Origin: Escherichia coli
GTDB taxonomy: Bacteria; Pseudomonadota; Gammaproteobacteria; Enterobacterales; Enterobacteriaceae
DNA: 64,000 nucleotides
Assembly: GCF_048403405.1 (NCBI RefSeq)
Contig: NZ_CP183129.1
Direction: 5' to 3' (one strand)
Shown here: piece after piece, positions 51,001 to 54,000 of the stretch
Layout of the letters: the number at the start of each line of letters is the position of its first letter
How positions within the stretch are numbered: position 1 is the first letter of the stretch
Made by a program: the position numbers

Positions 51001-54000
51001 ATAACCAATATTGCCGTTTACATCAGCATAGTACCAGTTGATGGTCAGTGCTTGTTTCGCTGCCTGCTGTGTCCACTCCTGCCAATTTTTGGCCTTCATC
51101 TGATGAGTCCAGGCCAGCAAAGACGCCACCTCTTTACCATCCCATGCGCGGGATTTAGCGTAAGCCGTTTGTGTCGTCTGGTCAGTTTGGAGAATGTTGC
51201 CATGCACCGTACGCCAGACAGTAAAGGTCTCTGCCTGACCATTTTTCACCGTAATGGTTTCCTCACGGCTTAACATTTTCACCCACTTACCATTATGCAA
51301 GTAGTAGCCTGGTTTCTCTGCCGACAGCCGTTCAGCAAAAATATCGACATCATCGCCGAAACCTGCCGTTGATCCCCAGGAAATCACACCATTATGACCA
51401 AAAACCAGCCCAGGATAGGCAAATGGTGTATTGCCAGTGACATCATAACCAGCACCGTGCAGACCAATACCATAAGTATACGCAGGCGCATACCAGCCAA
51501 ACTGCGGACCATTTACCATGATTGCTTTCGCATCCTGGGCTTTGCTTTTGCCGATCACCCACATATTGCTGGTCGTTGGATACCCCGCCAGACCATTGGC
51601 ACCACCCTGTGCAAATTGTGCAGCAATAGTTTCCCGGTTCTTCCCTGCTGTTAACGCCAGCAGTGCGCCATCCGCCCCTTTTGCTGGTCGGTCAAGCATT
51701 GGTGCAGGTAAATCGTAGCGTGGCAACAGAGCTGCTGTTTGCGAGTTTTGCTGATTAAATTTAAGTGGGTAGTTACTCTCTTGTACGGCAATAGTGGTTG
51801 GCGCTGATGGGTTTACCAGCCATTTCAACTGATTAAATACCGCCATGCCTTGTGATACACCATATTTATCTTTTAAAGCCGTTAGCAGTGCCAGATTATC
51901 AATTTCGCTAGTGCTATCAGAGAAGCGGTTTGCCATGGTGCCCACAAATATCATCGCGACATCAAACGGTTCCCAGCGCTTAGGAGTAAAGCCAAATGTA
52001 TTAAACTGTTTTGGTAAGAGCGTCTCTGGATTGGTATTTACCTTATCAATCCAGGCATTCATTCCATCAGCGTAGCCTTGCAGAATGGACATATCCTCTG
52101 GGGAAAGGGCAGCAATTTGCGCCCGGATAGCATCCGGCCAGTAGTTACGACGGATATCTTTATCAAATTTCACAAAATCTTTGCCAAGCACTTCCGCGAC
52201 AGTCCCTTGAGTACTGCGACGTGCCATTTCCATCTGAAAAAGGCGATCTTGTGCTACTACATAGCCATAGCCATAAAATAGGTGCCATGTATCATTGGCA
52301 TAAATATGCGGCATGCCGTATTCATCGCGAACAATCTTTATCTCACTTGACGACTGCTCAGCCAGTGCAGGTAAGCTCCAATAATACATCAGGGAAGCAG
52401 TAACACAGTTCACGATCATACGATTTCTATTTTTCATTGTATCCTCTGGCAGGTGTATAATTAGCGAATTGATACTAGCAACGAAGCTTCGGTTATCTAT
52501 TTGCAGAGAATTGTTTCATTATGAACTGTGAGCGCGATAACTAATTTTTGATACAAAAATTCCATTAATGTGATCTAAAACGAATCGCTTTATTCACCGC
52601 TGATGATTTTGTTCTATTCCTTTTTGTGACAGATCCCCCGGACGCATAGATGATGACCCCCAGAGAGACAGCTCAGGTCATTATCTGTATGTAAATCAGA
52701 AAAATATGTTGTAAACGACTTTTATGGTTGGATTTTGTAGCAATTTTGAATGCAGACAGGCAGCATTTGCCAACACGCCGCCCATAGTTCACTCCACATC
52801 CTCCCTGCGTAACCCAATATCCCTCAACCGTTCATCACTCATCTGCTGTAACACTCGTCGGGTCTGCATTTGCCGCCGCCAACGCCTCACCGCATGCCAG
52901 AGTTGCACAAGTCTGATAAACGGCGTTTTGGCTTTGTTTTCGTGAAATTCCATCTGCTGCCTCCTCATCTTTCAGAGGCTTCATCATCCGCCTTCTGGCA
53001 GTTCACAATACAGATGCAAATATTAGTTTTATTTAACATACAGACAGGTTAAAACAGCATCTGCATCCGGTTTTTTAGCCTCATCTGTACCGGTTTTTCT
53101 TTCTGTATGGGCCAAATAAGGAATACAGCATGACGCGTTATCAACATCTGGCGACTCTACTTGCCGAGCGGATTGAGCAAGGGCTGTATCGTCACGGGGA
53201 GAAATTGCCGTCGGTGCGCAGCTTAAGTCAGGAGCACGGCGTCAGCATCAGCACCGTGCAACAGGCGTATCAGACGCTGGAAACGATGAGGCTCATCACT
53301 CCGCAGCCGCGTTCGGGTTATTTTGTCGCACAACGTAAAGCCCAGCCGCCAGTACCGCCAATGACGCGTCCGGTGCAGCGCCCGGTGGAAATAACCCAGT
53401 GGGATCAGGTGCTGGACATGCTGGAGGCGCATAGCGACAGTTCCATTGTCCCGTTAAGCAAAAGCACGCCGGATGTCGAAACGCCCAGCCTGAAACCGCT
53501 CTGGCGGGAGCTAAGCCGGGTGGTGCAGCATAATCTGCAAACCGTTCTCGGTTATGACTTGTTAGCCGGTCAGCGAGTGTTGCGGGAGCAGATTGCCCGC
53601 CTGATGCTCGACAGTGGCTCGGTGGTCACCGCCGATGACATCATCATCACCAGCGGCTGCCATAACTCGATGTCGCTGGCGTTAATGGCGGTGTGTAAAC
53701 CGGGCGATATTGTCGCGGTCGAATCCCCCTGTTATTACGGTTCGATGCAGATGCTGCGTGGCATGGGCGTGAAAGTGATTGAAATCCCAACCGATCCAGA
53801 AACAGGCATCAGCGTTGAAGCGCTGGAACTGGCTCTGGAACAGTGGCCGATTAAAGGCATCATTCTGGTGCCAAACTGTAATAATCCGCTGGGATTTATT
53901 ATGCCGGACGCGCGCAAACGGGCTGTTCTCTCTCTCGCTCAGCGTCATGATATTGTGATTTTTGAAGATGATGTCTACGGCGAACTGGCGACGGAGTATC

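What the first reader, a model, noticed from the sequence alone, without database searches (positions are those of the whole stretch)
52789..52953. Unlisted small gene yjiS (DUF1127) upstream of pga
A 54-codon minus-strand ORF with a strong GAGGAGG RBS lies divergent to yjiR and was missed by the 60-aa ORF cutoff, while two spurious plus-strand ORFs are listed in the same interval.
Basis: seen in the sequence. Interest (0 to 1): 0.3.

Follow-up and report, generated by a model that had tools for sequence, protein, structure and literature searches.

The report
Known small gene yjiS, correctly spotted

Summary
A 54-codon minus-strand ORF (52789-52953) follows a GAGGAGG Shine-Dalgarno with a 6-nt spacer. 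It lies divergent to yjiR and upstream of, and co-oriented with, the penicillin G acylase gene. The mechanical ORF is 59 aa, so a 60-aa cutoff hides it.

The protein matches Pfam DUF1127 (E=2e-13) and is 91% identical to K-12 YjiS. RefSeq annotates it as yjiS in 3739 of 5426 complete E. coli genomes. In Citrobacter, Klebsiella and other enterobacterial loci the frame is intact, with pS 0.5-1.0 against pN 0.09-0.23. The N-terminus MEFHEN is invariant and yjiR is always divergent across a 176-177 nt spacer. The two overlapping plus-strand ORFs have no family hit and are not conserved.

Published work shows that E. coli YjiS binds the sensor kinase PhoR and restrains pstS and phosphate uptake. 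Salmonella YjiS sits at the inner membrane and pulls down SsrA/B.

The yjiS-yjiR spacer carries six conserved CTGTAT/ATACAG boxes. They fit a 2016 comparative-genomics prediction, never tested, that the MocR-type regulator YjiR controls yjiS.

Verdict: a real gene, already known, of low interest.

The parts
52789..52953 (-). yjiS coding sequence, 54 codons plus TGA. Product: MEFHENKAKTPFIRLVQLWHAVRRWRRQMQTRRVLQQMSDERLRDIGLRREDVE (11 Arg).
   Evidence: ORF and sequence. Pfam DUF1127 E=2e-13. RefSeq annotation yjiS (WP_000394270.1). Purifying selection.
52960..52966 (-). Shine-Dalgarno GAGGAGG, 6 nt upstream of the ATG
   Evidence: Sequence. The GGAGG core is near-invariant in nine enterobacterial loci (alignment A1).
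52966..52968 (-). Upstream in-frame ATG that gives the mechanical 59-aa ORF. It is probably not the start used.
   Evidence: It lies inside the SD and has no SD of its own. It is not an ATG in the other genera (GCG, ACG, GTG and others in A1). The N-terminus MEFHEN is invariant from the 52953 start.
52954..53129 (.). yjiS-yjiR divergent control region, 176 nt. It holds six CTGTAT/ATACAG-type boxes at 53008-53013, 53038-53043, 53061-53066 (degenerate), 53085-53090, 53103-53108 and 53123-53128.
   Evidence: Boxes are invariant or near-invariant across genera while flanking bases vary (A1). There are 4 exact hexamers against 0.08 expected, the densest cluster in the 64-kb window. No consensus sigma-70 promoter was found on the yjiS strand.
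53130..54542 (+). yjiR, a MocR-type regulator (GntR wHTH plus aminotransferase-like domain, 470 aa). It is the conserved divergent partner of yjiS.
   Evidence: ORF. RefSeq annotation. NCBIfam MocR-like hits. Conserved synteny in every orthologous locus that extends far enough (L004-L012; yjiR is split into two genes in L007 and cut off in the short contig L006).
49897..52437 (-). Penicillin G acylase gene (pga/pac), the strain-specific cargo that fills the variable island downstream of yjiS in this genome
   Evidence: ORF. RefSeq 'penicillin G acylase'.
52788..52789 (.). Junction between conserved framework (yjiS and rightwards) and the variable island. Homology to pga-less E. coli genomes begins at the last base of the yjiS stop codon.
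   Evidence: Megablast alignments of non-pga genomes start at query position 390, which is window 52789. Alignment A3 shows three different E. coli sequences diverging 1 nt after TGA.
52724..52945 (+). Spurious antisense ORF (73 aa)
   Evidence: No Pfam hit. It starts in pga-specific DNA that is absent from most genomes. The frame is interrupted in orthologues.
52870..53052 (+). Spurious antisense ORF (60 aa)
   Evidence: No Pfam hit. The frame is not conserved in orthologues.

Best explanation
This is yjiS, a real and already annotated protein-coding gene for a 54-residue, arginine-rich DUF1127 protein.

Shown here: the gene is translated from the ATG at 52953 behind a strong SD, its frame is under purifying selection, and it forms a conserved divergent pair with yjiR.

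Taken from the literature, not tested here: the protein associates with the inner membrane and binds sensor histidine kinases. In E. coli it binds PhoR, and loss of yjiS raises pstS mRNA and speeds phosphate uptake. The authors' proposed model is that the basic helix docks on the acidic cytoplasmic 'charged region' of PhoR and favours its phosphatase state.

Inferred: expression is conditional, because there is no consensus promoter and the gene is silent in rich medium in Salmonella. It is most likely governed by the divergently encoded MocR-type regulator YjiR acting on the six CTGTAT/ATACAG boxes in the 176-nt spacer.

Confidence split: about 0.97 for the gene's identity and coding status, about 0.55 for kinase modulation, and about 0.5 for YjiR control.
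For: - Family and annotation: Pfam PF06568 matches full length at E=2e-13. RefSeq annotates yjiS at this position, and 3739 of 5426 complete E. coli genomes carry it.
- Homologues: 162 homologues were found, and all 120 listed carry the same 54-aa core; those named by a source are called DUF1127.
- Selection: across 9 loci pS is 0.5-1.0 between genera (0.09-0.34 between close relatives) against pN 0.04-0.23, and dN/dS is 0.05-0.38 in all but one computable pair (0.77 for the closest Escherichia pair, which differs by only 12 nt). Variable columns by codon position are 26/20/44. The yjiS frame is the only one kept open in every locus.
- Conserved residues: MEFHEN and D45, G47, L48, R49, R50 are invariant.
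- Synteny: yjiR is divergent with a 176-177 nt spacer in every locus.
- RBS: the SD core is conserved.
- Function: in PMC12501420, E. coli YjiS interacts with PhoR in two-hybrid and Far-Western assays, the yjiS mutant has higher pstS and faster Pi uptake, and YjiS complements the Agrobacterium triple mutant. In PMC11707872, Salmonella YjiS was detected by Ribo-seq and western blot, fractionates with the inner membrane and pulls down SsrA/B.
- Regulation: the box cluster is statistically strong and conserved. YjiR is MocR-like. The supplement of PMC5320631 lists a YjiR regulog in Enterobacteriales with COG5457 as its target gene; COG5457 is the DUF1127 family by my own knowledge. MocR motifs typically have a TGT core in mixed direct and inverted boxes.
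Against: - Nothing here contradicts the gene's identity or coding status.
- Mechanism: the PhoR interaction showed in only one two-hybrid fusion orientation, and the E. coli phenotypes are mild.
- In Salmonella, single Arg and DIGL substitutions did not alter the infection phenotype, and a different kinase (SsrA) was recovered.
- Other DUF1127 proteins bind RNA.
- The AlphaFold model made here is only moderately confident (pLDDT 67) and shows one long helix, so it gives no structural support for a specific interface.
- YjiR binding to the boxes is untested. ArcA is also reported at yjiR, and an SsrB motif is reported upstream of yjiS in Salmonella.
Confidence: 0.85

Rival explanations
1. YjiS acts mainly as an RNA-binding protein or RNA chaperone, like Rhodobacter CcaF1, with the arginine-rich helix contacting RNA. 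On this reading the kinase interactions are secondary or simply electrostatic.
For: CcaF1 has the same Pfam domain and is an RNA-binding protein (PMC8034643, listed and discussed). The protein is 20% arginine. There is a weak sequence resemblance to a SAM domain (Tankyrase-2 SAM, E=0.049). CcaF1 and YjiS both complement the same Agrobacterium mutant.
Against: The discussion in PMC12501420 states there is no evidence for RNA binding by Salmonella YjiS. The protein is in the membrane fraction and its partners are inner-membrane proteins. Unlike ccaF1, no sRNA cluster follows yjiS: Rfam finds nothing and the downstream DNA differs between strains. Enterobacterial YjiS forms a separate clade.
Confidence: 0.12
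2. The true product is the 59-aa form starting at the upstream ATG (52968), MRRQQMEFHEN...
For: The ATG is in frame and gives the longest ORF. One database entry uses this start (P0042, 59 aa).
Against: The ATG overlaps the SD and has no SD of its own. It is replaced by non-start codons in Citrobacter and other loci (A1). MEFHEN is an invariant N-terminus and nearly all annotated orthologues are 54 aa.
Confidence: 0.03
3. yjiS and yjiR are 'framework' genes of the immigration control region, and their function is to target or promote cassette replacement at the island border rather than to act in signalling.
For: The variable island starts exactly 1 nt after the yjiS stop codon in three different E. 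coli arrangements. Kingston et al. speculated that yjiRS might contribute targeting (PMC4498929). An Rpn recombination-promoting nuclease gene lies next to yjiR.
Against: No DNA-related domain is present and PADLOC gives no hit. In Klebsiella, Citrobacter and other genera yjiS is followed by a conserved MarR-efflux operon rather than by a variable junction. Published phenotypes concern phosphate and virulence. In the study that raised the idea, YjiP activity was not targeted to the ICR.
Confidence: 0.03
4. The ORF is a chance reading frame or a non-coding element, not a gene.
For: It is short, and two antisense ORFs of similar length overlap it.
Against: Pfam E=2e-13. Selection is codon-position specific and the frame is open across genera. 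There is no Rfam match. Protein was detected in Salmonella.
Confidence: 0.01

Closest known systems
E. coli K-12 YjiS (b4341), DUF1127 domain-containing protein
   Same: Both are 54 aa, with 49 of 54 residues identical. The SD, the divergent yjiR and the 176-nt spacer are the same. RefSeq gives the same name.
   Different: There are five substitutions (K7R, T10A, R14G, H20Q, R44K relative to K-12). Downstream DNA differs: penicillin G acylase here, yjiT and the mcr/hsd/mrr restriction island in K-12.
Salmonella Typhimurium YjiS (PMC11707872)
   Same: It is an orthologue of the same length, with the invariant MEFHEN, the DIGL-type motif and 11 arginines. It is inner-membrane associated, and a sensor kinase is among its pull-down partners.
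   Different: Non-Escherichia enterobacterial orthologues are about 61-72% identical to the window protein; no locus here was confirmed as Salmonella. Its best-supported partner is SsrA/B, a SPI-2 system that E. coli lacks. Its virulence phenotype has no direct E. coli counterpart.
Agrobacterium tumefaciens small DUF1127 proteins SDP1-3 (PMC12501420)
   Same: They share the Pfam domain, bind PhoR and restrain pst expression. E. coli YjiS complements the triple mutant.
   Different: Homology is only 24% as reported. There are three paralogues instead of one.
Rhodobacter sphaeroides CcaF1 (DUF1127 RNA-binding protein, PMC8034643)
   Same: It shares the domain and the arginine-rich character.
   Different: It is 71 aa and is co-transcribed with the CcsR sRNA cluster, whose maturation it affects. 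No sRNA follows yjiS here.
MgrB and SafA, small-protein modulators of the PhoQ sensor kinase
   Same: The working principle is the same: a protein of about 50 aa at the inner membrane tunes a histidine kinase.
   Different: The sequences are unrelated. MgrB and SafA are transmembrane and act on the periplasmic domain, whereas YjiS has no predicted transmembrane segment and is proposed to act on a cytoplasmic region.

Membership tests
Pfam PF06568 (DUF1127 / YjiS-like) | Match to the family HMM above the curated gathering score, covering the whole domain | tested here: met
   50.2 bits against a 23.3-bit cutoff, E=2e-13, profile positions 1-37 of 37 at residues 18-54
Pfam PF06568 (DUF1127 / YjiS-like) | Small protein, unusually rich in arginine (family mean about 14% per PMC12501420) | tested here: met
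   54 aa with 11 Arg, which is 20% (sequence; family figure)
Pfam PF06568 (DUF1127 / YjiS-like) | Conserved D-[IV]-G-L motif near the C-terminus | tested here: met
   D45-I46-G47-L48 are present. D45, G47 and L48 are invariant in 16 orthologues. The motif is named in PMC11707872.
Enterobacterial YjiS orthologue group | High identity to E. coli K-12 YjiS over the full length | tested here: met
   49 of 54 residues identical to the DH5alpha/K-12 protein. DNA identity is 95% over yjiS and the yjiR 5' end (H17).
Enterobacterial YjiS orthologue group | Conserved synteny: divergent to the MocR-type regulator gene yjiR | tested here: met
   Divergent yjiR with a 176-177 nt spacer in the window, K-12, Escherichia sp., Citrobacter, Klebsiella and four metagenomic loci
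Enterobacterial YjiS orthologue group | Reading frame maintained under purifying selection | tested here: met
   pS 0.5-1.0 between genera against pN 0.04-0.23, dN/dS 0.05-0.38 in all but one computable pair (0.77 for the closest Escherichia pair), and a single terminal stop in every locus
Enterobacterial YjiS orthologue group | The protein is actually made (ribosome footprints or detectable protein) | not testable with these tools
   Shown for Salmonella by Ribo-seq and western blot (PMC11707872). It is not measurable from sequence.
Sensor-kinase-binding small proteins (YjiS/SDP-PhoR) | Direct binding to PhoR and repression of pst expression | not testable with these tools
   Reported for K-12 YjiS, which is 91% identical (PMC12501420). 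It has not been tested for this allele.
CcaF1-type RNA-binding DUF1127 proteins | Co-transcription with a downstream sRNA cluster whose maturation the protein assists | tested here: not met
   No Rfam family reaches threshold in 52300-53300. The DNA downstream of the stop differs between strains and is pga here.
MocR-type regulator operator (candidate YjiR site in the spacer) | Several short boxes with a TGT/TGG core in mixed direct and inverted arrangement, conserved upstream of the regulator and its divergent target | tested here: met
   Six CTGTAT/ATACAG boxes are conserved across genera and enriched about 50-fold. The MocR motif rules come from PMC5320631.
MocR-type regulator operator (candidate YjiR site in the spacer) | Binding by YjiR and an effect on yjiS transcription | not testable with these tools
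   Only predicted, as a YjiR regulog with target COG5457 in the PMC5320631 supplement. No experimental paper was found.

The most novel reading that the evidence does not exclude
The most novel reading not excluded has two parts.

First, the conserved YjiR-yjiS divergent pair would be a small-molecule-responsive module. A PLP-dependent MocR sensor would switch on a kinase-modulating mini-protein through the six CTGTAT boxes, linking an unknown amino-compound signal to PhoR and Pho-regulon output. A similar MocR-DUF1127 pairing recurs in Rhizobiales according to the PMC5320631 supplement.

Second, in pga-carrying strains such as this one, the absence of a recognisable terminator after yjiS would let that module read through into the penicillin acylase gene.

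The YjiR-to-yjiS link has been predicted in a supplementary table. It has never been tested, and neither of the two papers on YjiS function read here (PMC11707872, PMC12501420) mentions it.
Probability: 0.3. Interest if true: 0.4.

Novelty: already known. Interest (0 to 1): 0.1.

Why it matters
As a discovery it matters little, because yjiS is annotated in RefSeq and two 2025 papers address its function.

It does show that the stage-1 ORF cutoff of 60 aa hides real small genes and lists antisense artefacts in their place.

The one loose end with some value concerns regulation. [quoted passage not shown] The conserved box array and the divergent MocR-type YjiR point to a directly testable candidate.

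Tried and rejected
1. Known RNA families: Rfam on 52300-53300 with permissive E-values gave only three sub-threshold matches to archaeal C/D-box snoRNA models (16-21 bits against gathering scores of 45-54). I rejected these as chance.

2. Solved structures: no DUF1127 structure exists. The best match was the Tankyrase-2 SAM domain at E=0.049, which is too weak to use.

3. Structure prediction: AlphaFold2 with a 16-sequence alignment gave a single long helix (residues 9-46) at mean pLDDT 67 and pTM 0.35. I ran no fold search, because a lone medium-confidence helix gives meaningless matches.

4. Promoter and terminator scans: no consensus sigma-70 promoter was found on the yjiS strand and no intrinsic terminator between yjiS and pga. 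By eye, TTGTGA-17-GATGAA (about 53008..52980, minus strand) is a weak candidate whose TT and A-T-A-A positions are conserved, but without transcription start data I do not rely on it.

5. LexA reading of the boxes: CTGTAT/ATACAG resembles LexA half-sites, but the spacings (CTG-N20-CAG and others) do not fit CTGT-N8-ACAG. The UV tiling-array paper names yjiS only as a flanking marker. Rejected.

6. Pho box reading: no 11-bp-phased CTGTCAT repeats are present. Rejected.

7. Defence-system role: PADLOC gave no hit for YjiS, and only weak generic PLP-fold hits for YjiR.

8. NCBIfam has no model for YjiS.

9. The 23-nt imperfect direct repeat between the yjiS 3' end and the pga 3' end is probably chance. 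About 1.5 exact 11-mers are expected in 3.5 kb.

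Full report
**Observation**

The window sequence shows a minus-strand ORF with ATG at 52953 and TGA at 52791-52789, which is 54 codons. 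It is preceded by GAGGAGG (52966-52960) and a 6-nt spacer, CAGCAG.

The mechanical ORF finder reports it as 52789..52968, 59 aa, because an in-frame ATG sits inside the Shine-Dalgarno sequence. This is why a 60-aa cutoff drops it. The same list contains two overlapping plus-strand ORFs of 73 aa (52724..52945) and 60 aa (52870..53052).

yjiR (53130..54542, +) is divergent. The 846-aa penicillin G acylase gene (49897..52437, -) lies 351 nt downstream on the same strand.

**Is it a gene?**

- **Family match:** The 54-aa product matches Pfam PF06568 (DUF1127, now labelled 'YjiS-like') over the whole 37-position profile, at E=2e-13 and 50.2 bits against a 23.3-bit cutoff. The antisense ORFs and a third minus-strand ORF match nothing.
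- **Annotation:** A megablast of 52400-53200 against 5426 complete E. coli genomes finds the segment in 3739 of them. In the 20 records listed, the feature under the match is annotated 'yjiS: DUF1127 domain-containing protein' in all but two, which carry the product name without the gene symbol. One genome (strain 4621) is 100% identical and carries the CDS at exactly these coordinates, WP_000394270.1.
- **Identity to K-12:** The K-12 protein differs at 5 of 54 positions.

I fetched the DNA of orthologues from Escherichia sp., Citrobacter, Klebsiella and four metagenomic enterobacterial contigs by exact-protein look-up.

- **Frame:** It is open in all of them, at 54 codons (53 in one).
- **Substitution rates:** By Nei-Gojobori counting, pairwise synonymous differences between genera are near saturation (pS 0.5-1.0), while non-synonymous differences stay at pN 0.04-0.23 across all pairs. 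dN/dS is 0.05-0.38 in all but one pair where dS can be corrected. The exception is the closest Escherichia pair at 0.77, which differs by only 12 nt.
- **Codon positions:** Variable alignment columns split 26/20/44 over positions 1/2/3.
- **Other frames:** The yjiS frame is the only one of six kept open in every locus (a single, terminal stop).
- **Protein alignment:** Among 16 orthologues, MEFHEN at the N-terminus and D45, G47, L48, R49 and R50 near the C-terminus are invariant.
- **Start codon:** The upstream ATG at 52968 is replaced by GCG, ACG, GTG or other triplets in other genera, whereas the GGAGG core is kept. The 54-aa start is therefore the one supported.
- **RNA families:** Rfam finds no RNA family here.

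The 'not a gene' reading is excluded.

**Context**

yjiS and yjiR are 'framework' genes on one border of the enterobacterial immigration control region. This is the variable island between yjiA and yjiN that carries hsd, mcrBC and mrr in K-12 (PMC4498929, PMC12707154).

In this window the island holds only the penicillin acylase gene, an arrangement shared by 1069 of the complete E. coli genomes. The EcoSal review's ICR figure legend lists a hydrolytic enzyme, written as 'penicillinase', among the non-defence cargo, which may be this gene.

Homology to pga-less genomes begins at 52789, the last base of the yjiS stop codon. Three different E. coli arrangements diverge one base after TGA.

**How it most likely works**

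This rests on the literature, not on anything testable here.

Remme et al. 2025 (PMC12501420) report the following:
- YjiS is the only DUF1127 protein of E. coli.
- A yjiS mutant has raised pstS mRNA, faster phosphate uptake and a slight growth defect.
- YjiS interacts with PhoR in a bacterial two-hybrid assay (one fusion orientation only) and in Far-Western blots with purified proteins.
- E. coli yjiS restores pstS repression in an Agrobacterium mutant lacking three DUF1127 proteins.
- They propose that the basic protein binds the acidic cytoplasmic 'charged region' of PhoR, so that PhoU can hold PhoR in its phosphatase state.

Venturini et al. 2025 (PMC11707872) report the following:
- Salmonella YjiS is made only in SPI-2-inducing medium, as shown by northern blot, Ribo-seq and western blot.
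- It fractionates with the inner membrane.
- It pulls down inner-membrane proteins, including SsrA/B.
- It delays escape from macrophages.

The common denominator is a small basic protein at the inner face of the membrane that tunes sensor kinases. I adopt that as the best mechanism, at about 0.55.

The main rival is RNA binding as in Rhodobacter CcaF1. It is weakened by the membrane localisation, by the reported lack of RNA-binding evidence for YjiS, and by the absence of any sRNA downstream.

My AlphaFold model (one helix, pLDDT 67) adds nothing decisive.

**Regulation (inference)**

- **Box array:** Aligning the 176-177 nt yjiS-yjiR spacer from nine loci shows blocks of invariant sequence that resolve into six CTGTAT/ATACAG-type boxes. 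In window coordinates they lie at 53008-13, 53038-43, 53061-66 (degenerate), 53085-90, 53103-08 and 53123-28. They are arranged as mixed direct and inverted repeats 18-30 bp apart.
- **Statistics:** Four exact hexamers occur where 0.08 are expected from the window's own frequency (Poisson P about 2e-6). This is the densest such cluster in the 64 kb.
- **YjiR family:** YjiR is a MocR-type regulator. MocR operators typically have a TGT or TGG core and two direct boxes plus an inverted one (PMC5320631).
- **Prior prediction:** The supplement of that 2016 paper already lists a 'YjiR - Enterobacteriales' regulog whose target is COG5457. By my own knowledge COG5457 is the DUF1127/YjiS family. The supplement also lists MocR-COG5457 pairs in Rhizobiales. 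The link is therefore predicted, not new.
- **Status:** I found no experimental test, and neither YjiS function paper mentions YjiR.
- **Other inputs:** ArcA repression of yjiR is reported (PMC3798270), as is a putative SsrB site in Salmonella.
- **Promoter:** No consensus sigma-70 promoter is found on the yjiS strand. This fits activator dependence.

**Comparison and verdict**

The feature meets every testable criterion for DUF1127 membership and for orthology with K-12 and Salmonella YjiS. It fails the one testable criterion of the CcaF1-type arrangement.

It is an already known gene in an already described genomic setting. Interest is low.

The only part with some residual value is the untested YjiR-box-yjiS circuit. 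A related question is whether, in pga-positive strains, yjiS transcription reads into pga, since no terminator is recognisable between them.

Noticed in passing
window 52954-53129 (boxes at 53008-13, 53038-43, 53061-66, 53085-90, 53103-08, 53123-28): There are six CTGTAT/ATACAG boxes in the yjiS-yjiR spacer, invariant across Escherichia, Citrobacter, Klebsiella and other loci. Four exact hexamers occur against 0.08 expected. This is a probable operator array of the MocR-type regulator YjiR. The YjiR-to-DUF1127 regulog was predicted in a 2016 supplement but appears never to have been tested.
   Followed up: partly
window 52788/52789; alignment A3: The variable immigration-control island begins exactly one base after the yjiS stop codon. 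Three E. coli arrangements (pga, yjiT and symE types) are identical through GAGTGA and unrelated afterwards.
   Followed up: partly
proteins P0003-P0012, P0008, P0023, P0050, P0082 and others: Many database YjiS variants are 60-93 aa, with unrelated C-terminal tails or frameshifts in the last about 6 codons. For example, P0008 reads on into window ORF 52673-52792. This suggests frequent sequence change or assembly error right at the island junction.
   Followed up: no
L003 4001-4093 (E. coli strain PAR): Only the last 93 nt of yjiS survive there. yjiR, mdtM and the yjiS 5' half are deleted, and the remnant abuts an rpn gene. The framework itself can therefore be eroded. Overall, 1687 of 5426 complete E. 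coli genomes show no match to the segment.
   Followed up: no
window 54786-55742 (-): An intact 318-aa Rpn-family recombination-promoting nuclease gene (yjiP/yjiQ, rpnD type) lies next to yjiR. The K-12 (DH5alpha) copy is a pseudogene with an internal stop.
   Followed up: no
window 52438-52788: The simple scan predicts no intrinsic terminator between yjiS and the penicillin acylase gene, so yjiS transcripts could read into pga in this arrangement. pga is known to have its own promoter (my own knowledge).
   Followed up: no
window 49939-49961 and 52792-52814: A 23-nt imperfect direct repeat (18 of 23, with an exact 11-mer CTCCACATCCT) joins the 3' end of pga (encoding LTKQDVEA) and the 3' end of yjiS (LRREDVE*). 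That places it near both edges of the island. About 1.5 such 11-mers are expected by chance in 3.5 kb, so it is probably coincidence.
   Followed up: partly
window 52404-52425 and 52509-52530: A 22-nt inverted repeat (77% complementary, 83 nt apart) brackets the pga start codon and its upstream region. It may relate to pga regulation. I did not examine it.
   Followed up: no
L004-L011, about 4310-6920: In Citrobacter, Klebsiella and related loci, yjiS is followed, about 150 nt downstream and on the same strand, by a conserved MarR / membrane-fusion protein / DUF2955 gene trio. This trio is absent from the E. coli arrangements seen here.
   Followed up: no
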